A stretch of DNA of 64,000 bases. Origin: Mobula hypostoma (Eukaryota). The notes under the pieces were generated by a model. It was not told the DNA's origin and made no database searches. It saw only the letters and a list, made by a program, of their open reading frames with translations. The position numbers and the translations under genes were made by a program. Positions 1-60,287 of this stretch are shown here, one piece after another; the first letter of the stretch is position 1, and the number at the start of each line of letters is the position of its first letter. The stretch spans positions 61,940,001 through 62,004,000 of the forward strand of contig NC_086108.1 of assembly GCF_963921235.1 (NCBI RefSeq), given 5' to 3'.

Positions 1-22
1 AAAAGCATGTTGTGTTAAATTA

Positions 23-182
23 CACAACAAAATGCTGGTGGAACACAGGATGCCAGGCAGCATCTATAGGAAGAGGTACAGTTGACGTTTCGGGCTGAGA
101 CCCTTCGCCCTGACCTGCTGCGTTCCACCAGCATTTTGTGTGTGTTGCTTGAATTTCCAGCATCTGCAGATTTCCTCGTGTT
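23..182. mobile_element. Short fold-back Penelope-terminus derivative
   Basis: Left arm acacaacaaaatgctggtggaac is the reverse complement of right arm gttccaccagcattttgtgtgt. It shares sequence with the PLE 3' end at 23000-23100. Flanked by direct repeat tgttaaatta (13-22 and 183-192). Confidence 0.8.
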
Positions 183-1724
183 TGTTAAATTAATTCAATT
201 CAAATGAAAACTTGGGAAAAACTCACAAAGTAGGTAAACTTGGTCTTCAGTACAAAGCCCTATGCAAAACTTTGATTTTTTGCTGATCCTTTACATAGTG
301 TTGAACAACTACAGACAATAATGTGTGGAACTCTTCAACAATTATTGATAAAGCAATAATCTTAAATACCGTGAAAATTACTCAGGGGATAACATGTGAC
401 CCATGTTGGAGATACTCTCCACAGGTGCTGCTTGACCTGCTGAGCATTTTATTGTTACTACTTCTGACATTTGTATGTTTAAAGGTGATTTTAAACATAC
501 AAGTTGTTTTGCTCAAAATTTACAGTTTTGAAGCTAATGAAGTCTCTTTCTCCTTTACATTGTAGCTTTCCCTCCTTTGGTTCTTTCCAGACTCAGCTGT
601 AACAAGGAACACCGTGAAAACTGAAGTGGCAGGCAGCAAGGGTACCGAAGACTGCAGCAGATCCAGCACCTACCAGAAGACCCACCAGCTACCAGCCCCA
701 GTAGGCAACCGTGAAAAAGTAATCAGGGTGTGAACCTTGACAAAAGGTCAGAACAGCTCAGGTTAGACTTTGGGTGACAGATAACAGATTTTGCAGAACA
801 GCAGTATTTCATGTTAGGAACTGTTAGGAATTTGCAGGGACATTTTAATTGCCTGTATTATTGCTCAGTGAATCTCTTCCATATAAACCTCCAGAAAAAA
901 AAATGAAGCAAAACACTGAGGAACTTAAGTGACATATTCTACATATTTTCAAATATAATGAGCACAACTGTTGTTGTATTCGTATTTACATTAAAGTCAA
1001 TAATCCAATAGTTGAAACAGCATTTGATATTAGATAAATCAATGTGACTTCCACTAATGTAATGGAGATAATACTTCATAGCATGATATTGTTTAAATTG
1101 GATTATTGTATGGACCAGAAACATGTATTTTCTGCTTTACGTGAAAAAGATGAAAGCTTCCCCAATCTGCCGACAGTCAACACTTGAAGACTTTAACTTC
1201 CTCCCATTTCTGTCAGTACCCTTAGTCCTGCTACTAGTTTACAGAGGCATTCACTCTCCTGTTTCAGCTGCCCATTCTTGTCACTGTCAGTCAGTATTGC
1301 ACCATAGCTGACATCACTGATAAGTCTGGTGTTTCATAAAGCCCTTGCCTGTCATTTACCAACATGGTTTTACCTCCAAGAGTGATAGGACGGCAATAAG
1401 AAGCGAAGACCGTGGATGATTATCCCCATCTGATTAGCCCACCTGCTGAGAAATCACTTAAAGTAACCCTACCAGCAGTGAGATCAGCTAATTCACCATA
1501 AAGAATAGATCCAACGCAAGACCTAGCTGGGTTGCAGGCTTCAGTTTCACCTGAGAGAGTGCAGCTCCCAAATGAGCCCCTGGCAGAGCTCTCAAGCGTT
1601 TGCAGAATTATTCATTCATTTATGCTGAATAATTCCAAGAACATTTGGAGTTTTCAAAAGCAAAATAGGTGCTTCATGATACAAAACTCAGAAATATTTT
1701 ATATAAAAAGCAATACTGGATATT

Positions 1725-2315
1725 GAGGTGAGTGAGACACCCCTCACCCCCCACCATTCTAACCAATTTTTACAGGAGCACCATTGAGAGTGTCCTGAGC
1801 AGCTACATTACTGTCTGGTACAGGAATTGTAGGGCATCTGACCACAAGTCCCTACAAAGGACTGCACAGATGGCTGACAGGATTATCAGGGTATCTCCTC
1901 CACCCAACAGAGATAGTAATCAGGAGCACTGCCTATGCAAGGCCCTTAGCTTTGTCAATGATCCCTCCTATCCGTCCAACAATCTCTTTGACCCCCTATG
2001 ATCAGGCAGGAGGTTTAGGACATGAGCGGTTAGGATGGGAAACTGCTTCTTTCCCCAGGCCTCAAGACAACTGAGCTCCCTGCCACCACAAAGGTCTAAT
2101 CACACATAAAGCACCGGTAGTGTTAAGCTGTTTACTTTTGAACTTGTGTTGTAAATAACCTTATTATTTAATTTATTTATGGTAATATGACTTAATGTGT
2201 TATGTGTTTGAGTTATACATACTATGTTGTGCACCTTGGTCCAGAGGAATGGTGTTTTATTTGGCAGTATACATGTCTATGGTTGTATGACAAAAAACTG
2301 TACCTGAACTTGATA
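1725..2315 (+). mobile_element. Rex1/Babar-like LINE, 3' fragment
   Basis: ORF 1732-2001 (FYRSTIESVLSSYITVWY...DPSYPSNNLF) matches the C-terminus of the Rex1-like ORF at 16752-17687. Ends in a tgaacttga-type tail. Confidence 0.8.
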
Positions 2316-2489
2316 CTGAAAATAACTTCCCTTCACAATTCTAGGATTATATTTACATTACTATTCATTTGAAAGCTCTAGAAAATCAAAGTATTTTGTC
2401 TGCCAAAGGAAAGACCCCATAATATAGCCTGCCACACTTGTTGCCAGTTCATAATACTTAAATGCTGATAAAAATGGTTTATCATTAAC

Positions 2490-3165
2490 TCTTAGAGGCC
2501 ATTTGGCCCAAATCATCCATGCCAAGCACTATGCCAATGTAAACCAAAGCCATTTACCTACATTTGGTCCATAACCTTCTCAAACTTTCCTATCAAGATG
2601 CCTTTTAAACATTATTGTACCTGCCTCTACCATTTTCTCCAGCAGTTCTTCCATCACCCTCTGTGGAAAAAAACTTTCCCCTTGGGTCCCTCTAAATCTT
2701 TTTCCTCTAACAGTAAACCTACACCCTCTACTTTTAAACTCCCCTGTCCTGGAAAAATGACCGTCACTATCCAGCTATACTCTTCATAATATTATATGAT
2801 CACCCCTCAGCCTCCATGGATCCAGGAAAACAGAACCAGGCTACACAGTCTCATCTTATAACCCAAGTCCAGATCAAGCAGCATTCATGTGAATCTCTTT
2901 TGCCTCCTCTTTGGTTAATTCTATTCTTCCTGTAGTAAGGTGACCAGAATTGCACACAACATTCCAAGCGAGAGCTAACCAATATTTTATACAACCGTAA
3001 CGTGACATTCCAACTCCTAGACTCGGTACCTCAGCCAATGAAGGGAAGGATACCATACATCTTCTTCACCACTCTGCCTATGTGTCACCTTTTTGGGGAA
3101 CTGTACTCATACACAAAGGACTCACAATTCAGTAACACTCCTCAGGACCAATTATTCACTATGTA
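2490..3165 (-). mobile_element. CR1 LINE 3' end (degraded), continuing at about 11595-14330
   Basis: Frameshifted YKxLVxxxLExCVQFWSP region around 2940-3000, and a CR1 3' UTR-like ggccatttggccc near 2500. Confidence 0.75.
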
Positions 3166-3171
3166 TAGTAT

Positions 3172-5640: not shown

Positions 5641-5799
5641 CTAATACATGGTGGGGCCACCATGACTCCTTCCTCCCCGTGGGCCCAGCTCCCATCTGGA
5701 CCTTCCTTTGCTCCCTTTCTCCTTCTCTTCTGCCTTCACCTCTTCATATACTGGACTGGCTTCAGTGGTTTCTTCCTGCACACTTGCAATTTCAATTGC

Positions 5800-6375: not shown

Positions 6376-6379
6376 CAGT

Positions 6380-7380
6380 TTTTATAGGATACTGATTCTG
6401 GGGTTTATGCAAGCCCCTTCCTATTTTAACTGGGTTTGTCTTTACTCAACCATATTGTTGCTTGTGTCTAGCCCATGCTGCTGGGAACTGCTGACAAAGT
6501 AACCCATGGACACTGTCCTTGCTCCAGTCTCTGATGATCAGAGTGGCTGTGACTATGCTGTGTACTCTGTTGGCTGTACAAGTTTGCTGCCCCTTGCTTC
6601 TCCATATTATTTCTCCTTTTCCTGAATCTATACTGGCCCGTTTCACATACGACGTCTAGTCCAAGGATAGTACCGTCATTATTTGGACAGGCCCAGAAAT
6701 ACACTGGAAGCTGCACCCCACCGATATCAAGTATCTGTGTCACGCTTCTTTCTGCTTTCACCATATTTCCTCCTACACCCATAATATAAATAACCTGTCC
6801 AGTTGCTGGCAAGAGTAGGTCAGTTATCCGTACCAATGCTCGTGTCAATTAACATATCGCATTGCCAGCCCCTTATCAATGCTGCTGTGTATATCCGCAG
6901 GTTACCAGCGCTGGCAATGATGGTTGTCGCCACCTTTTTCTCCCCCGATCTAGAAGCTGTCTTCACCAGATCTATGATCTGATTGGCAGTCAGTTTGGTC
7001 AGACTAGGTGCTGATGGGGTGAGAGATTGCGTGTCTGCCGTGACTTTCACCTGTTTTTCTTTCCACATTTTTAGACACTGTTTCCAACCATGTCCTGATA
7101 GGTCACAGCTGTGGCACATCAATTCCTCTACTGTTTTATGTCTGGTCCAGCAGTCCTTCGCTAGGTACCCTGGTTGCTGGCACACAAAGCAAACTCTTTG
7201 ACACGTCACAACAGGTACATCCACTATAGTCTCCACTATCTCTAAATCTAAAACTTCCTGGGCTGACCTCAGGCCTTCCTTCATCATTTTCAGGAACACT
7301 GAGTCACCCCTCCCTGGATTAACCAACTCTGAACACTCTTCGATATTTACGTTCTGCATAATCCACGGCTCTCTCATCAC
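6380..7380 (-). pseudogene. Gag C-terminus with two zinc knuckles, aspartic protease and RT N-terminal stub
   Basis: CFVCQQPGYLAKDC and CHSCDLSGHGWKQC, then MLIDT and TILGLDV, then AWARHKQQYG*VKTNPVKI...QYPIK. Confidence 0.85.
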
Positions 7381-7384
7381 CTCT

Positions 7385-9450
7385 TTGAATCACCACAATT
7401 ATTGTTCCCTAGTTACTCTCACCCCTCCCCAGTCGCTGCCTTTAAATGTTTTCCCAAATTGTCTGCTCCTATCCCTCTCCAGCACTATGGTACAGAGTTG
7501 TGATAACTACCTCCAAAATGCTCTCCCACCAAGAGATCTGACATCTGACCAGGTTCATTTCCCAATACCAGATCAAGTACAGCCTTTCCTCTAGTTGGCT
7601 ATCTACATATTGCATCAGGAAACCTTCCTGAACACACCTAACAAACTTCACCCCATCTAAAACCCTTGCTCAGGGAAGGTGCCAGTCAATATCAAGAAAT
7701 TTATAATCTCACATCACAGCAACCCTATTATTATTGCAGTGTTCCAGAATCTGCCTCCCAATCTGCTCCTCAATATCCCTGTTACTATTGGGGGTTCAAT
7801 AAAAACACCCAGTAGAGTTATTGCCCCCCTCCTGTTTCTGACTTCCACACATACTGACTCAGCAGATAATCCCCCCATGACTTCCTCCCTTTCTGCAGCC
7901 GTGACTCTCTCCATGATTAGCAGTGCCACGCCCCCACCTCTTTTGCCTCCCTCCCTTTTGAAACACTTAAAACCCAGCACACTCAGCAGCCATTCCTGCC
8001 CCTGAGTCATCCAAGTCTCCGTAATGGCCACAACATCATAGCTCCACTAATTGATCCACGCTCTAAATTCATCTGCCTTGTTTATGATTCTCCTTGCATT
8101 AAAGTAGACCAACCTCAAACCATCTGGTTGAGTGCATCTTTGCTCTATCATCTGCCTATCCTCCTACAAGCTGTCTTTACTTGTGCACCAAATGCCCCAT
8201 CCTCTGCCTCTTCACTGTGGTTCCCACCTCCCTTCAAAACTAATTTAAATCCTCCTCAATAGCATTAGCAAACCTCCCCGCCAGGATGTTGGTCCCCCTC
8301 AGATTCAAGTGCAACCCATCCTTTTTGTACAGGTCACACCTGCCCCAGAAGAGGTCCCAATGATCCAGAAATCTGAATCCCTGCCCCCACTCCAAGCCTT
8401 CAGCCTTGCACTTATTCACCACCTTTTTCTATCCCCATACTCGCTGTCGCTTGGCACAGGCAGTAATCCCAAGATTACTACCCTTGAAATCCTGTTTCTC
8501 GGCATCCTTCCCAATTCCCTGTATTCTGCTTTCAGTCCTCCCTTTTTCCATCTACGTCATTGGTACCTATATGCACCATGACCTCTGGCTGCTCACCCTT
8601 CCATTTCAGGATATTGTGGACCCATTCAGAAACACCACGAACCCTGGCGCCTGGAAGACAAATTACCATCTGTGTTTCTTTTTCATGCCCAAAGAATCGC
8701 CTATCCGTTCCTCAAACTATACAGTCCCCTATTACTGCTGCCATCCTCTTCCATTCCCTACCCTTCTGAGCCACAGGGCCAGACTCAGTGCCAGGTAGGT
8801 CCCTCCCACCCCAACAGTACTCAAAGTGGAGTACTTATTGTTAAGGGGGATGGCCACAGTGGTGCTCTCCACTACCTGACACTCTCCATTCCCTCTCCTG
8901 ACAGTCACCCACTTATCTGTCTCCCGTGGCCCTGGTGTGACTACCTGCCTGCAGCTCCTATCGATCACCTCCTCACTTTCCCCCAGCAAATCAAAGGTCA
9001 TCGTGCTGCAGCTCCAGTTCCCTAACTCTGTCTCTAAGAACCTGCAGCTCAATTCACCTGGTGCATATGTGGCCACCAAGGAGGCTGGAAGTCTCCTAGA
9101 TATCCCACATCTGACACCCAGAGCAGAAAACTGACCTTGCAGTCATACACAATGTTCTTAAGTTAGAGGCAAAAAGGTGATATGGAAGTATCTTACCTCC
9201 TTACCTCACCTAGGCCCATCCTTGCCAAAGCCCTACTACTCTGACTCATGCTACTCCGACGACGGCTTCTTCAATAACTGCTCCGCTAGGCAGAGTCTCC
9301 CTTTACCCCGGAACCTTCTCAGCAGCCATGTGTGATGACAAGCTACTGCATCTGCACACTTCTTCCAATCGAATCTCCCAGCTTTTTAAATTTTCTCAGT
9401 GGCCTTAAACAATGATGAGCCACTGTGTCTGCACACTTTTCCCAGTCAAA
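7385..9450 (-). mobile_element. CR1 LINE 5' portion (ORF1 esterase plus APE start) inside the provirus gag
   Basis: ORF 8240-8422 (DHWDLFW...DGLHLN, SGNH) and ORF 7714-8031 (AITETW...GGGVALL, APE). No RT or 3' tail. Confidence 0.85.
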
Positions 9451-9635: not shown

Positions 9636-9649
9636 CACTTCTGACACCA
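9636..9649 (-). other. Primer-binding site, tRNA-Leu type
   Basis: Minus strand reads TGGTGTCAGAAGTG, complementary to the vertebrate tRNA-Leu 3' end ...CACTTCTGACACCA, directly inside the 5' LTR. Confidence 0.85.
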
Positions 9650-14843: not shown

Positions 14844-15491
14844 AACAACAGGAATTCTGCAGATGCTGGAAATTCAAGCAACACACATCAGAGTTGCTGG
14901 TGAACGCAGCAGGCCAGGCTGCATCTGTAGGAAGAGGTGCAGTCGACGATTCAGGCCAAGACCCTTTGTCAGGACTAACTGAAGGAAGAGTGAGTAAGGG
15001 ATTTGAAAGTTGGAGGGGGAGGGGGAGATCCAAAATGATAGGAGAAGACAGGAGGGGGAGGGATGGAGCCAAGAGCTGGACAGGTGATAGGCAAAAGGGA
15101 TACGAGAGGATCATGGGACAGGAGGTCCAGGAAGAAAGACAAGGCGGGGGGACCCAGAGGATGGGCAAGAGGTATATTCAGAGGGACAGAGGGAGAAAAA
15201 GGAGAGTGAGAGAAAGAATGTGTGTATAAAAATGAGTAACAGATGGGGTACAAGGGGAAGGTGGGGCCTTAGCGGAAGTTAGAGAAGTCGATGTTCATGC
15301 CATCAGGTTGGAGGCTACCCAGACGGAATATAAGGTGTTGTTCCTCCAACCTGAGTGTAGCTTCATCTTTACAGTAGAGGAGGCCGTGGATAGACATGTC
15401 AGAATGGGAATGGGATGTGGAATTAAAATGTGTGGCCACTGGGAGATCCTGCTTTCTCTGGCGGACAGAGCGTAGATGTTCAGCAAAGCGG
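14844..15491 (-). mobile_element. 5'-truncated Penelope-like element (GIY-YIG end plus terminal repeat)
   Basis: Minus strand encodes RFAEHLRSV...LPVATHFN...EATLRLEEQHLIFRLGSLQPDGMN. Degenerate hammerhead at about 14940-14976. Perfect 14-bp TSD tcattgttactggg (14830-14843, 15492-15505). Confidence 0.92.
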
Positions 15492-15894
15492 TCATTGTTA
15501 CTGGGTATGCTTTCCAGTGAAATTTGGTTATTTTATTATATTAAAGATAAGAGTGAAAATGATGCATGTTTAAATGCCTTCTCATTGTTATTTCATGTCT
15601 GTTTTTGGGATATGCAATCAAGGATAAATCTGGTTAAACAAAACACGTTAAGTCATGAAGTCGGGTCTCTGGTACTGAGTCTGCCTCTGTATCTCAGAGG
15701 AGAAGGGGGGGAAAAGAGCAGTGCAGTAGTGATAGGGGATTCCATAGTTAGAAGAGCAGACTGGAGGTTCTGTGGAGATGAAAGAGACACCTGGGTTGTA
15801 TGTTGCCTCCAGGCGTCAGGGTCAGGGATGTCTCGAACTGGGTCAACATCATTTTAAAGGGGGGGGTGTGAACGGCTGGTAGTCATGGTATATA

Positions 15895-20333: not shown

Positions 20334-23300
20334 TTCTACACCCGCCCTCACCAAAAATAGTTATGTCCTCATGGCTTTGTAGACCACTCAAACTTATCAG
20401 ACCATTATTAATAACACAGTATTCAAATTAATTTTGTGATTCAACCTGCAGATGCTGGAAATCCAAACCACACAAACAAAGTGCTGGAGGAACTCAGCAA
20501 ACCAGGCAGCATCTATGGAAAAAAGTATAGTCGACATTTCAGGCTGAAACCCTTTGGCAGGACTGGAAAAAAAAATCTGAGGAGTAGATTTAAAAGGTGG
20601 GGGGAGGGGAGAGAGAACGACCAAGTGATGGGTGAAACCTGGAGGGGAGGGATGAAGTAAAGAGTTTGGAAGTTGATTAGTGAAATGAGGTGAGAGAGGG
20701 AAAAGGGGATGGGAAATGGAGAAGGAGCAGAGAGTTTGTCTCCCTTTGTCCCCCTGCTCCCAGTGAGTTCTGCACCCGCCATGACACTGAGCTCTCCTCC
20801 CGCTGCCTCCGCCTCCAAGCCCATTTCGTTGGTGAGGACTCTCCATCCCGCACCAATGACCCCTTCTCCCATTTTCAACCCACCTCCTCTTCCTGGACGC
20901 CCCGCCCCGGTCTTCTGCCTACCCTGGACCTTTTCATTGCCAACTGCCGATGGGACATTAACCGTCTAGACTTTAACTCTCCTCTCTTCTATTCCAACCT
21001 CATTCCTTCTGAATGCTCAACTCTCCATTCCCTCCACACTAATCCTAACCTCACCATCAAACTCGCAGATAAGGGAGGTGCTATACTATAGTAGTCTGGC
21101 GAACTGACCTCTACTTTGCTGAGGCCCAGTGCCAACTTTCAGACACCTCCGCTTACTCACCCCTCGAACAGGACCCCACTAAGGAACACCAGGCCATCGT
21201 CTCTCACACCATCACCAACCTTATTGACTCTGGAGATCTCCTGTCCACCACCACTGACCTCATAGTTCCCGTACCCTACACCTCCTGTTTCTACTTCCTA
21301 CCCAAGATCCACAAACCTGCTTGTCCAGGTAGACCCAATATTTCAGCTTGTTCCTTCCCCACTGAATCCATATCTGCATACCTCGACTGTGTTTTATCCC
21401 CCTGGTTCAGTCCCTTCCTACCTACATCTGTGACACCTCACATGCTCTTGATCATTTCAAGGATTTTAAGCTGCCTGGTCCCCATCATCTCATTTTTACT
21501 GTGGATGGCCAGTCCCTATAGACCTCCATCCCACACTAGGAAGGCTTCAAGCCCTCTGTTTTTTCTGGACACCAGACCTAACCAGTTCCCCTCCACCACC
21601 ACTCTCCTCCACCTAGCAGAACTTGTCCTCACTCTCAATAATTTTTCCTTTGGCACCTTCCACTTCCTTCAAACAAAAGGTGTAGCCGTGGGCACTCACA
21701 TGGGCCGCAACTATGCCTGCTTGTTTGTCAGCTGTGTGGGACAGTCTGTGTTCCAAGCCTACACTGGTGATCGTCCCACTCTTTTTCTATGCTACATCGA
21801 TGACAGCACTGGTGCTACTTCCTGCACCACTCGTCTCTTCATCCACTTTGCCTCCAACTTCCACCCTGTCCTCAAATTCACTTGGTCCATTTCTGATACC
21901 TCCCTTCCCTTTCTTGATCTCAATGTCTCTATCTCCAGAGACAGCATATCCACCGATGCCTATTACAAACCCACAGACTCTCACAGTTACCAAGACTACA
22001 CCTCATCCCACGTTACCACTTGTAAAAATGCCATTCCCTTTTCTCAATTCCTCCATCTCCACCACATCTGCTCTCAGGATGAGGCTTTTTATTCTCGAAT
22101 GAAAGAGATGTGCTCCTTTTTCAAAGAAAGAGGCTTCCCTTCCTCCACCAACAACGCTGCCCTCAACCGCCCCTCTTCCATTTCATGCACGTCTGCTCTT
22201 ACCCCAACCTCCTGCCACCCTATCAGGGATAGGATTCCTTTTGTCCTCACCTACCACCCCACCAGCCTCTGAGTCCAGCACATAATTCCCTGAAACTTCC
22301 GCCACCTCCAACGGAATCCCACTACCAAGCACATCTTTCCCTCTGCCCCAAGTTCTGCTTTCTGCAGGGATCGCGCCCTACACAACCCCCTTGTCCATTC
22401 ATCTCTCCCCACTGATCTCCCTCCTGGCACTTAACTTTGCAAACAGAACAAGTGCTACACCTGCCCCTACAACTCCTCCCTCACTACCACCCAGTGCCCT
22501 AAACAGTCCTTCCAGATGAGGCGACACTTTACCTGTGAGTCTGATGGGGTCATTTACTGTGTTCAGTGCTCCTGGTGTGGCCTCCTGTACATTGGTGAGA
22601 CTGACATAGATTGGAAGACTGCTTTACAGAGCATCTACACTGTCTGCCAGAACAAGCGGGATCTCCCAGTGCCCACCCATTTTAATTCCACTTCCCATTC
22701 CCATTCTGATATGTCCATCCATGGCCTTCTCCACTGTTGTGATGAGGCCACGCTTAGGTTGGAGAAGCAACAGCTTATATTCCATTTGGGTAGTCTCCAA
22801 CCTAATGGCATGAACATTGATTTCTCAAGCTTCCAGTTATGCCTCCCAATATCCTCCCCCCTTCTCTATTTCCCATCCCCTTTTCCCTCTCTCACCTCAT
22901 CTCACCAATCAAGTTCACAGCTCCACGTTTCACCTATCACCTGGTGGTTCTCTCTCCCTTCCCCCGACCTTTTAAGTCTACTGCTCAGCTTTATTTCTTC
23001 AGTCCAGCCAAAGGGTTTTGGCCTGAAACATTGACTGTACCTTTCTCCCCTATAGATGCTGCCTGGCCTGCTGAGTTCCTCCAGCATGTTGTGTGTGTTG
23101 CAGCATATGCCAGCCTATCTGGGGGTTTCCTGACTCTGAGACATCCTCATCTCACTTTCAGCTTCTTTGGCCTCAGCCACTCCTTGTGACTGTTCTTGTC
23201 TGCTTGGGGATGTCTTCCCCCTGTCTGTCACTTGTACCTCTACATGATTCTGTTCCCCTTGCCCCCTGACTGAACTCAGCTTTATCTCCAATTATATGGG

Positions 23301-29393: not shown

Positions 29394-30154
29394 CCGTCCC
29401 TTGAAGAGACTTCATATTGGAGTAGCAAATCCTACATACAAGAGGTTCTGCATATGCTGGAAATCCAGAGCAACGCTCAATGCATTAGTAAGTTTTAAGT
29501 GCTTATCATATCCATGACACAGTGAACATGATTTGTAATCCAGTGCTTAAGAATATTTTGGGAATGCTTGGAAATCGTTTGCAGGTTGACACTTTCATAA
29601 TTCAGACAGACATCAATTTTACTCTTTTACTGAGATGCAGGCAGCATCTTAATAAGTGAACCACTTCAATGCGGCAAATAAAATTTAGCAGATGCAGCTG
29701 TGCATAATAACAATGGGAGTGATGATGAGGTGACACTGATGTCTTCTGCCATGTAATACTGAGATTCTTTTCTTCCATTAAAGTGACAGTTTCATTCTGT
29801 TCTCAATAACATGACAGTTCTATCAAGTCATTAACATCATTACAACGCTCTTCTTTAAAATACTATGAATACCTTCCTAAATTGCAAGCATGTTATTGTT
29901 AGTTTCTCCCCCATATGTCAACTCCATACCTTTGTCACTCTTCTTAACCTTTAAAAGCACCAAACACCAATTGATTGAAAAGATGAAAATTATATTCTCA
30001 GCATTTGGGCACAGGAAACCCAACTAGTTATAGTATGGTTTGCTACACCGCCGCTTCATCAAATGTTTATTTTGCAGGTATTGCATTGCGTGACAATGCA
30101 TATACTCAATAATGTGCTTTTGTTGACGGGGGGGGGAGGGGGGTGACATGATAG

Positions 30155-34589: not shown

Positions 34590-35260
34590 TAGAATAATTC
34601 AGCACAGAAACAGACCCTTTGACCCAACTTGTTCATTCTGATCAAGATTCACACCCAGGCTAGTCGCATTTGCCCACATTTGGCCCATATCCTCTATTCA
34701 TGTATTGTCCCAATCACATCTGAATGTTATTATTGTGCCTGCTTCAGCCTCTTTCTCTGTCAGCTCGTTCTATATATAACACCACCTTCTGCATGAAGAA
34801 ATTGTTCCTTACATTCTTTTTAATTTTTCCCCTCTCACATTAAAACTATGACCTCGAGTTTACGTAAAAACGAAATTGGAACAAAGTGGGTGAAGTTGAG
34901 ATGGTTGATGAACGGAGGGTCTTGGCCTGAAACGTCGACTGTGCTTCTTCCTATGGGTGCTGTCTGGCCTGCTGCATTCCACCAGCATTTTGTGTGTGTA
35001 CCTTGAGTTTATGGTTCCCTTTGCCTGGGAAAGAAACTGTGCATTCACCATATCTGCGCTCATCACCTTATGCATCTCGAAATGGCCGCCCCTCAAAATC
35101 CTACATTCCAAGGCATAAAGTCCTAGTCTGCCCAGCCTTTCCCCAAATAACTCAGGTCCTCGAGTCCTGGAAACATTCTTATAGATCCTCACTGCACTTT
35201 TTACAGCTTAATGACAACCTTCCTGTTACAGATAGACCAAAGCTGTGCACCACAATTGGA
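34590..35260 (-). mobile_element. CR1 3' fragment containing a PLE-terminus insertion
   Basis: ORF 34860-35192 (ERLGRLGLYALE). Confidence 0.75.
34863..34999 (+). mobile_element. Short PLE-terminus insertion with ~50 bp of unrelated 5' sequence
   Basis: agggtcttggcctgaaacgtcgactg...gcattttgtgtgtg, with TSD acctcgagttta/accttgagttta (34851-34862, 35000-35011). Confidence 0.8.
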
Positions 35261-36084: not shown

Positions 36085-36297
36085 CAGGGAATGCTTCAAA
36101 TTCTGGTCAGTCAGACAGTCTTTATAGTAAGGGGAAAAAAGTCAAGATTTCAGGTCAATGATTTGGAAAATTGAATCTTTCGCTTATCTTCATCACAACT
36201 GATATGCTGATGAAAGGTCATCAACTTGAAATGTTAATTTAATATCTCTCTCCACAGATGCTCTCAGGCCTGCTGGGTATTTCCAGCATTTACTGTC
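36085..36297. mobile_element. Older degenerate PLE-terminus fold-back element
   Basis: ctgatgaaaggtcatcaacttgaaatg...cacagatgct...cctgctgggtatttccagcatt, with a weak inverted left arm. Confidence 0.55.
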
Positions 36298-37299
36298 CAT
36301 CCTTAATTTCCTTTAGGAACTGCTGGCTAATTTGTAAATCTAGAAATAATATGTGTTGCAGCTTTAATAGATCAGAAAAGCCTTGCCTAATTAAAACTAG
36401 CCAATATAGTAGTGAATTGTTCATTTTTTAGGTGCTGGATTAACTGAGCTTGAAATGACAATCATTGAGAGTCATCAAACATATAAAACTAAAAATAAAA
36501 TGGTCTATGCCAATCCAATTTCAACAGTTCTCAAAATCAGGAAATTAGAAATTTGGAAACTGGGTCATTTCCTCAATGAGAATGAACTTAAGCCATGACC
36601 CTAGTTGGTATGCAACAAATTTAGTGAGTTGAATCCAATGCTGCTCCCAGCCCTGCCTTCCCATACACTTCTTCCAAAAATGGAAGGGACAAAAGGTTGA
36701 CTCCTTAAACTGGTCAGAGAGGGTTTGAATGGCTTTAAGTGACATGTTAGCCTCAGAGAGCAAGGATATTCTGAATCTCTATGTTTACTTGACAACCTTT
36801 CATCATCTATTTCTCAAAGGATTTATAATAACCTATAACTGGAGCCAATGGACTTTTAGAAATTTATTCAACAAGGAACGTAAAATTAAAATAGTTAATT
36901 GTAATTAACAACACATTGCAAATATTAGCAAATAGTTAAAATGATAAAAGGTAAAGAGCTTGTTTGTACTTTCTTTTTTTTCTTAGAGCTGGCTACCTTA
37001 TCTATTACTCCTTGTCCTAAAGCTGAAACCCAGATGTCAAGTGTTCCCTCGGCAAGTTGCTCTCTGGTGCAGACCCAATGGGGGACCAAACAATGGAGCA
37101 GGTAGACTGATAGACTGGCATATCACCATCCAGACATTTCAGGTTTCTAGCATGGCCGCGCATGTTCAAAGGTCTCAGACTTCCTGAGATGTGAACACTT
37201 GATAGGTATGCGTTCTCAGTCAGTCCAGAGTGAAGGTATACCTGGACTGCACCATATCGATTTAATATCAGTTAACTGAGTGAAGAATGGAAGATCTCA

Positions 37300-37900: not shown

Positions 37901-38099
37901 TCCCCTGTTGCTATTCCCAGCGGCAACAAGTATACCCCTTTGGATATTGCTGTGGGGTAATGACCCATCGGGCACCTGCAGCAGCAGTTGGGACTGTGGT
38001 TCCCCTGTTGCTATTCCCAGCGGCAACAAGTATACCCCTTTGGATATTGCTGGGAGGGACGTCCCATCGGGCACCTGCAGCAGCAGTCGGGGCTGTGGT
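37901..38099 (+). repeat. 100-bp tandem duplication in CR1 ORF1
   Basis: tcccctgttgctattcccagcggcaacaagtatacccctttggatattgctg starts at 37901 and 38001. Confidence 0.95.
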
Positions 38100-39067
38100 T
38101 GGCACTGGGGCTCAGCAGGGAAGGGTAAAGTCGGGCAGAATGATAGTAATAGGAGACTTGATAGGGGAATGGACAGGAGATTCGATGGCCATGGAAGAGA
38201 TGCCAGGATGGTGTATTGCCTACAAGGTGCTAGGGTGCAGGATGTCTCAGAACGACCACAGAAGATTCTCAAGAGGGAGGGTGAGCAGCCAGAGATCATG
38301 GTGCACATTGGCACCAATGACTTAGGGTAAAAGCGAGGGAGGTCTTGCACAGTGAGCATAGGGAGTTAGGGAAGAGGCTGCAGAGCAGAAACTCCAAGGT
38401 AGTAATCACTGGGTTACTCCCAGTACCATATGCTAGTCAGGGCAGGAATAAGATGATAGCACAGATGAATGAGTGGTTTAGAATGTGGTGCAGGTTGCAA
38501 GATTTCAGATTTCTGGATGATTGGGATCTCTCTGGAGAAAGTATGACCTGTACAAAAAGGACAGGTTACACCTGAACCCGATTGGGGCCAACATCTTTGC
38601 AGACAGGTTTGCTAGAGCTGTTAGTGAGGATTTAAACTAATTTGGCAGGTAGATGGGAACTAGAGTGATAGGGCTGAAGATGGGGCAGTTCGAAGTACAA
38701 GTCGATGCATTGTGAAGTGAAACTGTGAGGAATGACAGGCAGATGATAGGGCAAAATTGCAGTCAGTAGGATAAGTTGAAGTGCAATATGGGGGTCAAGA
38801 TTAAAAAGGGTGATGCATACAGGACTGGAGGTGTTATATTTGAATTCACACAGTATATGGAATAAGGTAGAAGACCATGTAACGCAGTTAGAAATTGGCA
38901 GATATGATGTTGTGGGCATCACTGAGTCATGGCGCAAGGAAGATTATAGTTGGGAGCTTAACATCCAAGGATACACCTTGTATTGAAAGGACAGGCAGGT
39001 AGGCAGAGGGGATGTGGTGGTTTTGTTGGTAAAAAATGAAATAAAATCCTTAGAAAGTGGTGACATG

Positions 39068-41136: not shown

Positions 41137-42836
41137 AGAAAGTTGTGACATGTGATCAGAAGATGTAGAACCCTTGTGGGTAGAGGTAAGAAACTGCAAG
41201 GGTAAAAAGACCCTGATCCCTGATGGGAATTATATACAAGCCTCCGAACAGTAGCCAGGATGTGGGATATAAATTTCAAAGAGAAATAGAAAAGGCGTGT
41301 AATAAGGGCAATGTTACGATAGTCATGGGGGATTTCAATATGCAGGTAGATTGGGAAAATCAGGTTGGTGTGGGATTCCAAGGGAGGAATTTGTAGAATG
41401 CCTAAGAGATGGCGTTTTAAATCAGCTTGTTACAGTGGTATAAGGGGAATTATAGAGGTGTGAGAGAGAAAATGAAAAAGTTGATTGGAAGGGGACACCA
41501 GCAGGAACGACGACAGAACAGCAATGGTTAGAATTTCTGGGGGAGATTCGGAAGGTGCAGGATAGATAAATCCCAAAGAAGAAAAAGAATTCCAAAGAGA
41601 GGATAAGGAAAGATTGGCTGCCAAGGGAAGTCAAAGACAGCATAAAAGGAAAAGAGAGGGCATATAATATAGCAAAAATTAGTGGGAAGTTAGAGGATTC
41701 GGAATCTTTTAAAAACCAACAGAAGGTAACTAAAAAAGCCAAAAAGAGAGAAAAGATGAAAAATGAAGCTAGACAGTGATATAAAAGACCATACCAATTG
41801 TTTTTAAAACATACATACAAAGTAAAAGAGAAGTGAGAGTGGATATCAGACCCCTGGAAAATGATGCTGGAGAGGTAATAATGGGGGGGAGGGACAAAGA
41901 AATACCAGACAAATGTACGTATTTTGCGCCATTACAAGTAGTAATGCAGAAATTTGAAGTTTAAGGGGGCAGCAATGAATGTAGTTGCTATTACTAAGGA
42001 GAAAGTTCTTGGGAAGCTGAAAGGTCTGAAGGTAGATATGTCACCTGGACCAGATGGTGTACATCCCAGAGTTCTAAATGAGGTAGCTGAAGAGATTGTG
42101 GATTCATTAGTAACAATCTTTCAAGAATCATTAGATTCTGGACTTGTTCCAGTGTACTGGAAAATTGCGTATGTCACTCCACTCTTTAAAAAGTGAGGCA
42201 AAAGAAAGAACATTATGGGCCAGTTAGCCTGACTTCCGTGGTTGGGAAGATACTGAAGTCCATTATTAAGGATGAGCTTTCAGGGTACTTGGAGGCACAT
42301 GATAAAGCAGGCCAAAGTCAGCATGGTTTGTTTAAGGGGAAAGTCTTGCCTGACACAAGTGTTGGAATTCTTTAAGGAAATAACAGGCAAGATAGACTAA
42401 AGAGAGTCAGTGGATGTTGTTTACCTGGATATTCAGAAGGCCTTTGACAAGGTACCACATATGAGGCTGCTTAACAAGAGTCGGTGGTATTTCAGGAAAG
42501 ACTTCTGGTAAGATGGCAGCATGTTCAAACGCAGTGACCTCTCGGGGGGCCAGTCAGAAGTGTTTTTGTCCTTTTTGTGATCACAGGATAATGTTGGACA
42601 TTAAGAACATCAGGTACTGCAGGTCTACTCCATCAGCAAGCTGCTCAGTGGTGGAGCAGCTAGAGGAGCTGGACTGGTGCGGACTGCGTTACTGCCTGCT
42701 ACAGGAAGGCCTCAGGGTCGGTGCCCGAAGGCAGAGTGCAGTCTATCAGCGAACGACTGCCTTGGACCTTCCTCCTGTGATTGCAAGAACATGTTAGATA
42801 CTGTAATGTAGAATGCTGCAAGTATATTTCCCTTAC

Positions 42837-43053
42837 AACAGGAATTCTGCAGATGCTGGAAATTCAAACAACACACATCAAATTTGCTGGTGAACGCAGC
42901 GGGCCAGGCAGCATCTCTAGGAAGAGGCGCAGTCGACGTTTCAGGCCAAGACGTCCTGATGAAGGGTCTCAGCCTGAAACGTCGACTGCACCTCTTCCTA
43001 GAGATGCTGCCTGGCCTGCTGCGTTCACCAGCAACTTTGATGTGTGTTGCTTG
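42837..43053. mobile_element. Palindromic PLE-terminus derivative
   Basis: About 80-bp inverted arms (42870-42950 versus 42966-43049) with few mismatches. No TSD seen. Confidence 0.88.
42953..42986 (+). ncRNA. Minimal type I hammerhead ribozyme motif
   Basis: gtc-CTGATGA-agg(gtctcag)cct-GAAA-c-GTC-gac: core boxes, stem II, short stem I and a vestigial stem III, as known for PLE hammerheads. Activity untested. Confidence 0.7.
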
Positions 43054-50084: not shown

Positions 50085-50690
50085 GATCAGGTGACTGATT
50101 TGTGGAGCACTTATATTCAATCTGCACAGGGGTAACTGCGAACTTCCTGTTGCCTGTCATATTAATTCCCTTTCCCAGTCTGACCTATCTGTTTGTGGCC
50201 TCCTGCATTGTTACAATAATGACTAACATAAGCTTGAGTAACAACAGCTCATTTTCCATCCAGTTGCATGCTTCAGAGCCATTATCAAGTTCTCCAGCAT
50301 TAGATAAATTGCTCTCTCTGCATGAGAACTGGCCTTTCTGTTGCAATTCATCCACTGGTGATACTAGTTCAATATTTCTCCCCTTCATTAACACAGGCTA
50401 CCTAGGCATGATCAACAGCCTACAGTTCCCAACATTTTATCTGCGTGATTATTGTCTCACTGATGCCATTAAGCCATCGACCATCATGCATTTCCAGGGC
50501 AATCCAGGCCTTACCCTAACAGAGACCGTCCTTTTGTCCTTTCATTGTTCAGCTGATTGCAGCTGAAAATTAACCTTATTTTTCTTTTAATTCCGATAAA
50601 GGGGCTTTGACGTAAAACATTAACTCTGTTTGTCTTTCCATGGGCGCTGCCTGATGTAGTGAGAGTTTTTCCGGTATTTTCTGTTTATCC
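50085..50690 (+). mobile_element. Old degraded PLE 3' end
   Basis: GLLHCYN..KLE*QQLIFH resembles the GIY-YIG tail. Decayed terminal motif at 50590-50685. Confidence 0.55.
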
Positions 50691-54282: not shown

Positions 54283-56002
54283 ACATAGAAACATAGAAAA
54301 TAGGTGCAGGAGTAGGCCATTCGGCCCTTTGAGCCTGCACCGCCATTTATTATGATCATGGCTGATCATCCAACTCAGAACCCCGCCCCAGCCTTCCCTC
54401 CATACCCCCTGACCCCCGTAGCCACAAGGGCCATATCTAACTCCCTCTTAAATATAGCCAATGAACTGGCCTCAACTGTTTCCTGTGGCAGAGAATTCCA
54501 CAGATTCACCACTCTCTGTGTGAAGAAGTTTTTCCTAATCTCGGTCCTAAAAGGCTTCCCCTTTATCCTCAAACTGTGACCCCTTGTTCTGGACCTCCCC
54601 AACATCGGGAACAATCTTCCTGCATCTAGCCTGTCCAATCCCTTTAGGATTTTATACGTTTCAATCAGATCCCCCCTCAATCTTCTAAATTCCAACGAGT
54701 ACAAGCCCAGTTCATCCAGTCTTTCTTCATATGAAAGTCCTGCCATCCCAGGAATCAATCTGGTGAACCTTCTTTGTACTCCCTCTATGGCAAGCATGTC
54801 TTTCCTCAGATTAGGGGACCAAAACTGCACACAATACTCCAGGTGTGGTCTCACCAAGGCCTTGTACAACTGCAGTAGTACCTCCCTGCTCCTGTACTCG
54901 AATCCTCTCGCTATAAATGCCAGCATACCATTCGCCTTTTTCACCGCCTGCTGTACCTGCATGCCCACTTTCAATGACTGGTGTATAATGACACCCAGGT
55001 CTCGTTGCACCTCCCCTTTCCCTAATCGGCCACCATTCAGATAATAATCTGTTTTCCTATCTTTGCCAACAAAGTGGATAACTTCACATTTATCCACATT
55101 AAATTGCATCTGCCATGAATTTGCCCACTCACCCAACCTATCCAAGTCACCCTGCATCCTCTTAGCATCCTCCTCACAGCTAACACTGCCACCCAGCTTC
55201 GTGTCATCCGCAAACTTGGAGATGCTGCATTTAATTCCCTCATCCAAGTCATTAATATATATTGTAAACAACTGGGGTCCCAGCACTGAGCCTTGCGGTA
55301 CCCCACTAGTCACTGCCTGCCATTCTGAAAAGGTCCCATTTATTCCCACTCTTTGCTTCCTGTCTGCTAACCAATTCTCCATCCACATCAATACCTTACC
55401 CCCAATACCATGTGCTTTAAGTTTGCACACTAATCTCCTGTGTGGGTCCTTGTCAAAAGCCTTTTGAAAATCCAAATATACCACATCCACTGGTTCTCCC
55501 CTATCCACTCTACTAGTTACATCCTCAAAAAATTCTGTGAGATTCGTCAGACATGATTTTCCTTTCACAAATCCATGCTGACTTTGTCTGATCATTTCAC
55601 CGCTTTCCAAATGTGCTGTTATCACATCCTTGATAACTGACTCCAGCAGTTTCCCCACCACCGACGTTAGGCTAACCGGTCTATAATTCCCCGGTTTCTC
55701 TCGCCCTCCTTTTTTAAAAAGTGGAGTTACATTAGCCACCCTCCAATCCTCAGGAACTAGTCCAGAATCTAACGAGTTTTGAAAAATTATCACTAATGCA
55801 TCCACTATTTCTTGGGCTACTTCCTTAAGCACTCTAGGATGCAGACCATCTGGCCCTGGGGATTTATCTGCCTTCAATCCCTTCAATTTACCTAACACCA
55901 CTTCCCTACTAACATGTATTTCGCTCACTTCCTCCATCTCACTGGACCCTCTGTCCCCTACTATTTCTGGAAGATTATTTATGTCCTCCTTAGTGAAGAC
56001 AG
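54283..56002 (-). mobile_element. Young 5'-truncated CR1 LINE with an uninterrupted RT frame
   Basis: ORF 54375-56108 has NYRPVSLTS, DFQKAFD, GVPQGSVLGP and KFADD with no stops. The first ~35 aa come from flanking DNA. (gaaacata) tail. Confidence 0.95.
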
Positions 56003-57456
56003 AAGGGGTTGGTTGCAGGAGGGGCAGCTTAACTGGCAGCTCAATGTTACAGCATTCTGTTGATTTAGACATGTTAGAACAGGAGAGATTAAAGGGGAAG
56101 AGTGGCATTATTAATCAAGAAGAATGTCACAGCAGTGCTCAGTCAGAAGAGACTGAAGAGTTCCGTTAGTTAGGCTTTATGGATAGAACTGAGGACTAGG
56201 AAAGGTATGACTATGTGAATAGGATTATATTATCAACAACCCAATAATCTGGATGATTTCGAGGAGCAAATTTGCAGAGAGATTGCAGACTGTTGCAAGA
56301 AACATAAGGTTGTGATATTAGATGATTTTAACTTTCCACATATTGACTGGGACTCCCATACTGTAAAAGGTCTAGAGTTTGTCAAATGTGTTCAGGAAAA
56401 TTTCCTTCATCAGTACATTGAAGTCCCAGCTAGAGAGAGAATGCAGTACTAGATCTCCAGTTAGGGAATGAGACAGGGCAGGTGACAGAAGATTGTATCG
56501 GGAAACACTTTGCATCTAGTGATCACAATACTATTAGTTTCAAGGTGATTATGGGAAAGGATAGGTCTGGTCCTTGGGCTGAGATTCTAAATTGGAGAAA
56601 GACCAATTTTGATGGTATGAGAAAGGATCTGGCAAGTGTTGATTGAGACTGGTTGTTTTCAGACAAAGTTGTACTTGGTAAGTGGGAGGCATTCAAATGT
56701 GAAATTTTGAGAGTACAGAATTTATATGTTCCTGTCAAAATAAAAGACAAGGATAACAGATTTTGAGAATTTACTTTTTGGAAGATATTGAGGCTCTGGT
56801 TAGGAAGAAGAGGGAGTTGCATTGCAGGTACAGGCAGGAAGGGAAAATAAGGGACTTGAGAAGTATAAGGAATGCAAGAGCACAGTTAAGAAGGAAATCA
56901 GGAGGGCTAAAAGAAAGCATGAGGTTGCTCTAGTAGAGAAGATGAAGAAAAATACCAAAGGTTTCTACAAATCAATGAAGAGCAAAAGGATAGCAAAGGA
57001 CAAATTTGGTTCCCTGGAAGATCAGAGTGGTAATCAATGCATAGAGCCGAAAGGGATCGCAGATGGATTTTAAGCATTTTTATTTACTTGGGAGACAAAA
57101 ACAGAGTCTACGGATGTGAGGCAATGCAGGAAAAAAGTTATGGACCTTATACAGATTACAGAGGAGGAGGTGTTTGCTACATTGAGGCAAATTAGGGTGG
57201 ATAAATCCCCAGGGCCTGGCAAGATAGTTCCTCTGACCCTGTAGGAGGCTAGTACAGAAATTGCAGGGGCCTCAGCAGAGATATTTAAAACACCCTTAGC
57301 CACAGATGAGGTGCTGGAGAATTGGAGGATAGATAATGTTGTTCCGTTATTTAAGAAAGCTTCCAAAAATAAGACAGGACATTATAGGCTGGTGACTCTG
57401 ACATCAGTCGTGGGAAAGTTATTAGAGGTTTTCTAAGGGACTGGATCATTTTTTAT

Positions 57457-58297: not shown

Positions 58298-58480
58298 TAT
58301 TTGGAAAGATGGGCTGATTAGAGTTACTCAACATGGCTTTGTGCATGATATGTCACATGTAACCAATCTTATTTTTCAAGGAAGTTACCAGGAAAGATGA
58401 TGAAGGCAAGGTAATGGATATTGTCAAGGCCCTTGACAAGGTCCCTCATGGGATGTTGGTCAAGAAGGTTCAATTGTTTG

Positions 58481-59044
58481 TGTAACACGCTGTAAGGTTT
58501 CACTGCTAAGGCTAATGTAATGGCTTCTATGTACTGTTCCACTGCTAAGGTAATGGTTTCTCTGTCGCAGCAATGTTTGTGTTATGACTAGAGATAATGG
58601 GGCATGTTAGCCAATGAGGGGATCTTGTTCTTTCTTGTGTATCTGGGAGCTGGGATTTTGGGGTCTTTCGTCGGGGAGCGATGGAAAGAGTTGGTAGAAC
58701 ACCGGATGAAGTGGACTGAGGAGCGAGCGTCCAGGGCTGGCTACGCTCAGAGGTTGATGGGAACAAATGAACAAACAGTGAGCTCCAACATTGCACAATA
58801 GACTGTTTTATGAGAATGGGCCCTTTTCTTTTTTTTGTTTCTTTACTAACCATATAGTCAAATTAAAAATTATAAAGCTCAATTGTTTAATCGCATATTG
58901 TGTACTGTTTGCGATTTCGCGGTGCAGGTTTGTATCTGGGCAACACATCACACAGCATCCACACAAACGTGATTTGTCAGTTTGGCAGGGCCAGAGGCTG
59001 TTTTCCCATAGATGAACATGTACTGGCTGAACCCAAGGATTACA
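58481..59044. mobile_element. Solo LTR (564 bp, Gypsy-like)
   Basis: tgtaa...ttaca termini and a 4-bp TSD tttg/cttg inside CR1. Confidence 0.78.
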
Positions 59045-59460
59045 CTTGGCGTTCATAATTTGGAGTATTGTGTCCAGTGTTCGTCACCTCAGAATTAATC
59101 CAAGACCTTGGCCTCACTACTTCCCTTGCACTGGATGGTTGATTTCCTCAATTGCAAACTCCAATCAATTCGGAATAGCAACAATATCTCCTCCATGATC
59201 TCCACAAGGCTGTTTGCGTAGCCCCTGCTCTACTCATTTTACACTTATGACTGTGACTAAACACAGCTCCAATGTCATATTCAAGTTTGCTGACGACACC
59301 ACTGCTATAGGCTGAATCAAGGGTGGTGATGAATCAGCATACAGGAGGGAGATTGAGAATCTGGCTGAGTGGTTCTATAACAACAACCTTTTACTCAATG
59401 TCAGCCAAGATCAACTGGCTGATTATTGATTTCAGGAGAAAGAAACCAGATGTCCATGAG

Positions 59461-59666
59461 CAACACACATAAAAGTTGCTGGTGAACGCAGCAGGCCAGG
59501 CAGCATCTCTAGGAAGAGGTACAGTCAATGTTTCAGGCCGAGACCCTTCAGCCCGAAACATCGACTCTAACTCTTCCTAGAGATGCTGCCTGGCCTGCTG
59601 CGTTCACCAGCAACTTTTATGTGTGTTGCTTGAAATTCCAACATCTGCAGAATTCCTCGTGTTTGT
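59461..59666. mobile_element. Palindromic PLE-terminus derivative
   Basis: Perfect 58-bp inverted arms (59461-59518, 59571-59628). TSD catgag(c) at 59455 and 59667. Confidence 0.92.
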
Positions 59667-60287
59667 CATGAGCCAGTCCTCATCGGAGGATCAGAGGTGG
59701 AGAAGGTCAGTAACTTTAAATTCCTCAGTGTTATTATTTCAGAGGACCTGTCCTGGGCCCAGCACATAAGTGCAATTACGAAGAAAGCACGGTAGGGTCT
59801 CTACTTCCTTAGGAGTTTGCGATTCAGCATGACATCTAAGACTTTGTCAAACCTCTATGGATGTGCAGTGGAGAGTATTTTGACTGGCTGCACCACAGCC
59901 TGGTATGGAAACACCAATGCCCTTGAACGTAAAATCCTACAAAAGTAATGGGTACAGCTTAGCCCTTCACAAGTAAAGCGCTCCCTACCATTGATACACC
60001 AAAGGTTGTCATTTGAAAACAGCATCCACCATAAGGAACCCCCACCACCTGGGTCATGCTCTCTTCTCACTGCTGCCATCAGGAAAAAGATACAGGAGCC
60101 TCAGGACCCACACCACCAAGTTCAGGATCAGTTATTACCCCTCAACTATCAGGCTCTCGAACCAAAGGGGATAACTTCACTTGACTTCACTTGCCCCAAC
60201 ATTAAAATGTTCCCACAAACTAAGGACTTTACTGTCAAGGTCTTTTCATCTCATGTCCTCAACTTTTATTTCTTATTTATTTATTAT

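What the first reader, a model, noticed from the sequence alone, without database searches (positions are those of the whole stretch)
13..59673. Complete PLE size series in one window, converging on the hammerhead-bearing terminus
Seen: at least eight related pieces (23, 14844, 20445, 34863, 36085, 42837, 50085, 59461). They run from a 2.6-kb RT+GIY-YIG element down to ~140-220-bp stubs. Four have TSDs of differing length (about 10, 14, 12 and 6-7 bp). Stub boundaries repeatedly fall within about 20 bp of the hammerhead core. Inference: the ribozyme defines where reverse transcription stops or switches template, producing an abundant hairpin family.
Basis: partly seen in the sequence, partly recalled or inferred. 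Interest (0 to 1): 0.7.

Follow-up and report, generated by a model that had tools for sequence, protein, structure and literature searches.

The report
Penelope stubs starting at hammerhead edge
These are ordinary leftovers of a very abundant Penelope-like jumping gene, and their short copies begin far more often than chance allows at the outer edge of its hammerhead motif, about 32 bases before the predicted cut site, likely because the element's RNA starts there and not because the ribozyme cuts.

Summary
The pieces are real by-products of a high-copy Neptune/Nematis-type Penelope-like element (PLE). Seven of eight carry the terminus; 50085 is an endonuclease fragment. The four TSDs check out. 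The window's density is ordinary (11 arms seen, 12 expected).

Breakpoints are not uniform. With 0 as the first base after the predicted hammerhead cut, 37 of 151 young arms reaching -28 end by -37. That is 2.8 per 100 nt, against 0.54 just upstream. Genome-wide junction counts are 2524 at -32, 1937 at -31, 89 at -39 and 278 at the cut. So the peak lies at the 5' edge of helix I, not at the cut.

In 46 of 47 inverted insertions, one tailed arm is paired with one untailed arm.

Best reading (about 0.55): both ends of a staggered target cut prime RT at the two internal tail sites, and cDNAs from the 5' pLTR run off the RNA's likely start at A(-32). A TATA-like box lies about 30 nt upstream. An uncut ribozyme fold or a splice acceptor at the same base is not excluded. 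siRNA production is untested.

The architecture is published, and this scan found the same peak before on other DNA of this genome.

The parts
24..183 (.). Inverted stub: minus arm 24-107 (-24 to +60, untailed), plus arm 111-183 (+28 to +102, tailed); 10-bp TSD at about 13-22 and 183-192
14844..15493 (-). Solo 5'-truncated young copy, tailed (+101) to -554 (end of GIY-YIG, 3' UTR, hammerhead, tail); 14-bp exact TSD
20445..23101 (+). Older-subfamily element: inverted tailed arm 20445-20725, 5'-truncated broken RT to GIY-YIG ORF 20743-22836, untailed 3' terminus to 23101; decayed hammerhead; no TSD found
34863..35010 (+). Stub from -25 to about +70 (34912-35000), preceded by a 38-nt inverted ORF fragment (34874-34910, E 0.017); 11-12 bp TSD with one mismatch
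36206..36298 (+). Decayed hammerhead terminus of an older related family; the inverted partner at 36083-36190 is not significant
42835..43053 (.). Hairpin stub: tailed minus arm from -18, untailed plus arm from -31 with intact core; folds at -171.6 kcal/mol, z -22; no clear TSD
50140..50260 (+). Decayed GIY-YIG fragment of a PLE; no terminus, so not part of the claimed series
59459..59664 (.). Hairpin stub: untailed minus arm from -23, tailed plus arm from -15; 7-bp TSD
29438..29474 (-).

Best explanation
These are 5'-truncated and head-to-head inverted insertions of a high-copy endonuclease-bearing Penelope-like element, and their short arms pile up at A(-32)/G(-31), likely because reverse transcription primed inside the 5' pseudo-LTR runs off the RNA's 5' end, predicted to be a transcription start.

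Inferred cycle: the GIY-YIG nuclease makes a staggered cut of about 13-15 nt. Both 3' ends prime RT. The two RT centres of one complex start at the two tail sites (about +68 and +102). Two minus-strand cDNAs are then joined end to end, which gives one tailed and one untailed arm, head to head, between TSDs. If only one end primes, a solo stub results. A complex bound at the 3' pLTR can give long copies. A complex bound at the 5' pLTR can copy at most about 100-135 nt, down to A(-32) or the minor A(-36). The hammerhead is copied through uncut.

Shown: architecture, TSDs, breakpoint peak, arm coupling. Inferred: transcription start, twin priming, dimer.
For: Peak: 37 of 151 arms end at -28 to -37 (2.79 per 100 nt), against 6 of 114 at -38 to -47 (0.54); edge p = 1e-5. 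It holds in the systematically spaced sample alone (13 of 50) and in solo arms (17 of 91). Tailed and untailed arms peak in the same bin although they start 34 nt apart, so the stop is fixed in sequence, not in length.

Genome-wide junction counts: -30: 1282; -31: 1937; -32: 2524; -34: 426; -36: 567; -39: 89; 0: 278. Corrected, these are about 3.1, 5.4, 5.8, 1.4, 2.0, 0.3 and 1.0% per nt. The steep upstream edge with a downstream shoulder is the shape expected of run-off, and both maxima fall on pyrimidine-A steps.

TSDs abut G(-31) with 0-2 extra nt in L262, L268, L277, L309 and L154. An A/T-rich box lies 25-31 nt upstream of A(-32) in 81 of 90 young copies; in 57 older copies A frequency peaks at 0.54 at 27 nt upstream.

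In 46 of 47 inverted pairs one arm is tailed and one untailed (p = 3e-13 against independent choice). In 26 of 47 neither arm contains the other. Short pairs with short and long with long (odds ratio 23, p = 2e-5). TSDs of 11 bp or more were found in 43 of 47 pairs and 32 of 73 solos, against 1 of 360 controls.

In vitro, the anole PLE extends both DNA strands, starts at two internal sites that bound the tail, is predicted to be a dimer, and inserts equally well with dead-hammerhead RNA (PMC11167929). PLE promoters lie in the pLTR (PMC2377424), and a TATA plus Inr-like pair is described in a rotifer pLTR (PMC3846280).
Against: No RNA 5'-end data were available; only Logan contigs were served, and they cannot show starts.

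The motifs read as TATA and Inr read equally well as branch point, polypyrimidine tract and AG. In D. virilis Penelope the intron ends at the 5' end of helix I, and the start site lies 46 nt upstream of that 75-nt intron. -32 is also exactly the helix I boundary. The young TATA-like box is a weak variant, judged from recalled consensus. No excess G that would mark a copied cap is evident before A(-32) in the 100 listed matches (by eye).

The edge is weaker for tailed arms alone (p = 0.10). Copies holding the ORF 5' region are rare (3 loci besides one short fragment), so the source RNA was not identified. The in vitro work is on a Poseidon element, while this family has the Neptune/Nematis linker. 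Short-short concordance could also come from simultaneous early termination.
Confidence: 0.55

Rival explanations
1. The uncut hammerhead fold sets the boundary. Helix I (-32 to -29 paired with 0 to +3) protects the RNA from 5' trimming, or makes RT release there.
For: The modal breakpoint (-32/-31) is the first base of helix I. The minimal hammerhead is intact in 75 of 130 young arms that reach -33. In the anole PLE the hammerhead folds and cleaves only with protein.
Against: An RT arriving from the 3' side opens helix I at +3 to 0 first, so a stall should show near +4 or -9, where the hazard is low (0.06-0.65 per 100 nt). The secondary maximum at A(-36) lies outside the fold. The minimum-energy fold of a single arm is not the hammerhead and is no more stable than shuffles (z -0.79).
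Confidence: 0.15
2. The boundary is a conserved 3' splice site. Splicing factors bound at the polypyrimidine tract and AG block RT on unspliced RNA, or RT copies spliced RNA and fails at the junction.
For: Branch-point-like motif, pyrimidine tract and AG at -36/-35 and -32/-31 in young copies, and one AG at -32/-31 in older ones. The D. virilis intron ends at helix I (PMC4209133).
Against: No join of upstream PLE sequence ending at a GT to -30/-34 was found in 310 loci plus the window. TSDs abut -31 directly in several solos, leaving no room for an exon. Ends include the AG more often than they stop at -30. No GT..AG joint was listed in four possibly-RNA contig sets (weak).
Confidence: 0.12
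3. Hairpins arise by self-priming or fold-back (on an antisense template, or through the alternative -46 to -18 hairpin whose loop covers -34 to -29), and the nuclease later trims the ends to give the one-sided tail.
For: Proposed in print for head-to-head PLE repeats (PMC3846280); the tail is attributed to nuclease resolution in PMC8557442. The predicted RNA hairpin has its loop on the peak.
Against: Only 1 of 47 pairs has the symmetric junction with 4 or more shared bases that this hairpin predicts. Microhomology of 4 nt or more occurs at 9 of 107 inverted arms, and 39 of 107 have inserted bases. Solo stubs show the same peak. In vitro, sense RNA is copied and the tail ends are RT start sites.
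Confidence: 0.1
4. Hammerhead self-cleavage creates the template end at which RT stops (the strong form of the first reader's idea).
For: 278 genome-wide junctions at 0, about 1.0% per nt, about three times the rate at -39. A minor contribution remains possible, and no neighbouring position was counted as control.
Against: The rate at -32 is about six times higher. Peak stubs contain the 5' side of the cut, which a cleaved template would lack. Locally 3 of 187 arms end there (p = 0.12), and at least one (L142) joins through the helix I microhomology. Dead-ribozyme mutants do not change insertion in vitro, and no RNA-seq reads ended at the cut in the anole.
Confidence: 0.04

Closest known systems
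Canonical C-terminal EN+ Penelope-like elements, Neptune/Nematis type (Craig et al. 2021, PMC8557442; Arkhipova et al. 2013, PMC3846280)
   Same: Single RT plus GIY-YIG ORF with DKG and CX4CxxC linker, pLTRs, frequent 5' truncation, adjacent inverted 5'-truncated copy, 30-40 bp tail at one end, TSDs.
   Different: Very high copy number (about 180,000 young arms). A single-base-resolved pile-up of 5' ends at the hammerhead's 5' edge, and 46-of-47 tail coupling, were not in the passages I read.
Poseidon PLE of the green anole studied in vitro (Frangieh et al. 2024, PMC11167929)
   Same: Two internal RT start sites bounding the tail, both target strands extended, hammerhead shortly upstream of the tail and dispensable for insertion.
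   Different: Different clade. In the anole element the ORF starts in stem II; here the start codon was not determined. That paper reports no distribution of genomic 5' ends in the main text I read.
Minimal type I hammerheads of metazoan PLEs (Cervera and de la Pena 2014, PMC4209133)
   Same: Core, extra base before helix II, G-C/U closing pair, palindromic CG in place of helix III; mostly single motifs from truncated PLEs; opposite-strand pairs 100-700 bp apart already noted.
   Different: Helix II is 4 bp here, shorter than the 7-8 bp described for the Schistosoma motifs. Cleavage was not tested here.
Non-LTR retrozymes (Li et al. 2026, bioRxiv 10.64898/2026.07.22.740005)
   Same: Non-coding, PLE-terminus-derived, hammerhead-bearing.
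   Different: Retrozymes are head-to-tail tandems with a hammerhead in each unit; these are solo or head-to-head insertions with TSDs.
L1 twin priming
   Same: Both ends of the cut target prime cDNA and give an inversion between TSDs.
   Different: In L1 the two arms come from non-overlapping parts of the RNA. Here both start at the terminus, 34 nt apart, and overlap, so the product is a hairpin.

Membership tests
EN+ Penelope-like element | RT with DKG motif and C-terminal GIY-YIG nuclease in one ORF | tested here: met
   ADKG, YIDD and IYCVRCSRCGLLYIGET in the 754-aa frame of L182; Pfam RVT_1 E 4e-4 and GIY-YIG E 0.015, both below gathering; window 21088-22836 matches at 70%
EN+ Penelope-like element | Pseudo-LTRs from partial tandems | tested here: met
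   L066:1357-5214 is pLTR, tail, ORF, pLTR with a 13-bp TSD
EN+ Penelope-like element | Optional 30-40 bp tail and adjacent inverted 5'-truncated copy | tested here: met
   3' ends bimodal at about +57 to +78 and +95 to +102; 47 inverted pairs
Neptune/Nematis type | CX2-5CxxC linker before GIY-YIG | tested here: met
   CKRNKCYTC at residue 621 of the L182 frame; definition
Neptune/Nematis type | RT phylogeny placing it in Neptune rather than Nematis | not tested
   No tree was built
Minimal type I hammerhead | CUGANGA and GAAA core, helices I and II, extra base before helix II, palindromic CG, NUH | tested here: met
   75 of 130 young arms reaching -33 fit the descriptor; no Rfam hammerhead match in the window at E up to 1
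Minimal type I hammerhead | Self-cleavage (as dimer or protein-assisted) | not testable with these tools
   Needs an in vitro assay
Non-LTR retrozyme | Head-to-tail tandem of two or more hammerhead-bearing short units | tested here: not met
   Window self-comparison shows solo or inverted arms only
Self-copying non-autonomous hairpin (MITE-like or SINE-like) family | Many copies share one internal junction | tested here: not met
   47 of 47 junctions distinct in the unselected pairs. Among the 30 best matches to 42837, four share its -18/-31 junction, but these were picked for likeness, and a -17/+18 junction recurred in two loci in the raw calls
Hairpin endo-siRNA source | 21-23 nt phased reads from both arms | not testable with these tools
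   No small-RNA reads were served; 45 of 47 pairs share 21 or more pairable bases

The most novel reading that the evidence does not exclude
The hammerhead of this PLE works uncut, as a structural marker of the RNA's 5' end that fixes where cDNA synthesis ends. A dimeric RT-nuclease primes both target strands from two sites 34 nt apart, so each integration can write a ready-made hairpin. The tens of thousands of such hairpins then supply the small RNAs that silence the element.
Probability: 0.12. Interest if true: 0.65.

Novelty: new member of a known kind. Interest (0 to 1): 0.36.

Why it matters
How PLEs form their inverted, one-side-tailed insertions, and what their hammerhead does, are open questions. 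With about 180,000 young arms, this genome gives a base-resolved record of both. It shows that the cut site does not set the main 5' boundary, and it shows near-obligate pairing of a tailed with an untailed arm, as a two-site twin-priming dimer would give. It names one base (A -32) whose three possible roles can be separated by one CAGE or 5'-RACE experiment. The window itself is ordinary, and the architecture is in print.

Tried and rejected
Rfam scan of the window: no hammerhead family matched; four weak hairpin-driven hits were taken as chance.

Pfam on the window's broken PLE frames: no hits.

The first breakpoint pass with all subfamilies against one young reference was rejected, because older copies falsely end at -32. 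Analysis was limited to arms at 86% or more identity over 30 nt or more, without the old-type motif.

The de-duplication wrongly removed symmetric hairpin arms and was redone. There, 2 duplicated arms were dropped, 3 edge-censored arms excluded and 4 false stops extended, leaving 216 of 221. The junction refinement mishandles indels in a few arms (for example L142 and L205/L206), so the cut-site count is given both raw (3) and refined (1).

The 30 loci most like 42837 were not used in the histogram, since they are selected for its length.

Sequencing runs: no RNA holder was listed on record, only contigs. Two lay-outs could not show starts or splicing. Loose ends before -32/-31 mix old-subfamily sequence with true junctions and were not counted as evidence.

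Splice-like joins: none found. A length-fixed stop was rejected, since both start classes peak at the same place. A hairpin master element was rejected.

Literature searches listed no paper whose title or abstract start reports a pile-up of PLE 5' ends at the hammerhead edge. The library lacks most subscription papers. The anole paper's supplementary figures S1-S2 were not seen (only 3 text files) and may bear on the RNA ends. bioRxiv supplements are closed.
Full report
Setting. The window is G000:C50:61940001-62004000 of a 3.48-Gb genome. The repeat is an endonuclease-bearing Penelope-like element. L066:1357-5214 is a complete pLTR, tail, ORF, pLTR unit with a 13-bp TSD. The 754-aa frame of L182 has ADKG, YIDD, a CX4CxxC linker and a GIY-YIG core with two internal cysteines, which is the Neptune/Nematis type by the definition in PMC8557442. 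The terminus holds a minimal type I hammerhead as described in PMC4209133, intact in 75 of 130 young arms that reach -33. I number from the first base after the predicted cut (0). Helix I starts at -32, the core at -28 and helix II at -20. The two 3' ends lie at about +68 (untailed) and +102 (tailed).

Observation. Six listed pieces carry the terminus clearly, and a seventh (36085) carries a decayed older one on its right half only. 50085 is an endonuclease fragment without terminus. The four TSDs are there: 10, 14, 11-12 and 7 bp. The window is not special: 11 arms against about 12 expected from 119 spaced 10-kb stretches. One exact 37-mer occurs 54,258 times in the genome. Young arms number about 180,000 (range 141,000-227,000).

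Breakpoint test. I used 139 systematically spaced 10-kb stretches and 100 loci picked by exact motifs lying downstream of the cut, so selection did not depend on the 5' end. Older subfamilies were excluded because their different upstream sequence fakes a stop at -32. Of 221 young arms, 216 were usable. Stops per 100 nt at risk: +17 to +5, 0.32; +4 to -4, 0.06 (3 raw events at 0/+1, 1 after refinement); -5 to -16, 0.65; -17 to -27, 1.17; -28 to -37, 2.79 (37 of 151); -38 to -47, 0.54; -101 to -200, 0.15. The best 10-nt window held 37 events against a maximum of 29 in 5000 simulations. The peak holds in the spaced sample alone, in solos, in pairs, and for both start classes; the upstream edge is not significant for tailed arms alone (p = 0.10).

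Genome-wide check. Patterns requiring two non-matching letters before the element gave 1282 (-30), 1937 (-31), 2524 (-32), 426 (-34), 567 (-36), 89 (-39) and 278 (0). Scaled by anchors extrapolated from 32-47 hits in 1.39 Mb, these are about 3.1, 5.4, 5.8, 1.4, 2.0, 0.3 and 1.0% per base, each good to about a third. The -30 to -32 patterns also admit older subfamilies, hairpin flanks are not random, and the cut site had no neighbouring control.

Inverted copies. In 46 of 47 head-to-head pairs one arm is tailed and the other is not, though 45 of 112 unpaired arms are tailed. In 26 of 47 the untailed arm reaches at least 5 nt further upstream, so neither arm contains the other. Short arms pair with short (25) and long with long (14). 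TSDs of 11 bp or more flank 43 of 47 pairs and 32 of 73 solos, against 1 of 360 shuffled controls. All 47 refined junctions differ. Microhomology is slight and insertions are common. Short young hairpins number about 17,500 (7 in 1.39 Mb; range 7,000-36,000). The one at 42835 folds at -171.6 kcal/mol, z -22.

Mechanism. A staggered cut leaves two 3' ends. If each primes RT at one of the two tail sites and the two cDNAs are joined, the product is exactly the observed arrangement: TSD, inverted arm, arm, TSD, with one tail. The anole PLE in vitro extends both strands, starts at two internal sites that bound the tail, is predicted to be a dimer, and does not need hammerhead cleavage (PMC11167929). 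Because priming is internal, a complex on the 5' pLTR of a transcript has only 100-135 nt to copy before the RNA ends. A steep edge at A(-32), a minor one at A(-36), a downstream shoulder, TSDs abutting -31 and an A/T-rich box 25-31 nt upstream in young and older subfamilies fit a transcription start there. This step is inferred. The same letters read as branch point, pyrimidine tract and AG, and the D. virilis intron ends at helix I, but no spliced join was found in 310 loci and the window. -32 is also the helix I boundary, but an RT coming from the 3' side would have opened that helix already. An alternative predicted hairpin has its loop on the peak, but only 1 of 47 pairs shows its fold-back signature. 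RNA data were contigs only and could not decide. My odds: run-off at a start site 0.55, uncut fold 0.15, splice acceptor 0.12, self-priming 0.10, cleavage 0.04.

What is known. 5' truncation, an adjacent inverted copy and a tail at one end are described in PMC8557442 (passages) and PMC3846280 (passages; it proposes self-priming on antisense RNA). Opposite-strand hammerhead pairs and solitary motifs from truncated PLEs are in PMC4209133 (parts 1-2 of 4). PMC11167929 was read in parts 1-2 of 4 with a term search of 3 supplementary text files. PMC2377424 was read in passages. The retrozyme preprint was read in part 1 of 5 and passages. L1 twin priming and the TATA, Inr and splice consensus motifs are recalled. 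Seven searches listed no paper reporting this breakpoint peak. Earlier notes of this scan report the same peak on other DNA of this genome and similar stubs in other genomes; they are not independent support.

Verdict. A real but ordinary set of PLE by-products. The sharp edge at -32 and the tailed/untailed coupling are useful, testable constraints on PLE integration. Interest 0.36; new member of a known kind.

Noticed in passing
window 29078-29157 (-): 80-nt piece of the PLE ORF's 5' region (89% to L066) with no terminus next to it. A similar piece is in L220, and public contigs join this region back to -32/-23. It may mark a further RT start or template jump near +215.
   Followed up: partly
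window 54375-56114 (-): 579-aa open frame with an RT domain (Pfam RVT_1 E 1e-31), CR1-like by recall; other RT remnants at 16632-17687 and 10198-10950.
   Followed up: partly
window 6468-7389 (-) and 24000-24392 (-): Decayed LTR-retroelement-like frames: a zinc-knuckle and protease-like stretch, and an integrase-like stretch (by eye; no Pfam hit for the two frames scanned). Observed only.
   Followed up: no
window 39261-39902 (+): 213-aa frame resembling an L1-type ORF1 protein by recall; no Pfam hit at E 0.001.
   Followed up: no
window 63294-63659 (+): Frame resembling a DNA-transposase remnant by recall; no Pfam hit.
   Followed up: no
window 37901-38100: 100-bp direct tandem duplication at 92% identity.
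   Followed up: no
L201, L256, L282, L124: 10-17 nt extra bases between the TSD and the stub's 5' end. In L256 and L282 they are the reverse complement of the tail end, that is, minimal second arms, so some 'solo' stubs are two-armed.
   Followed up: partly
L183:4365-7000: Long 53-bp satellite array beside a PLE copy.
   Followed up: no
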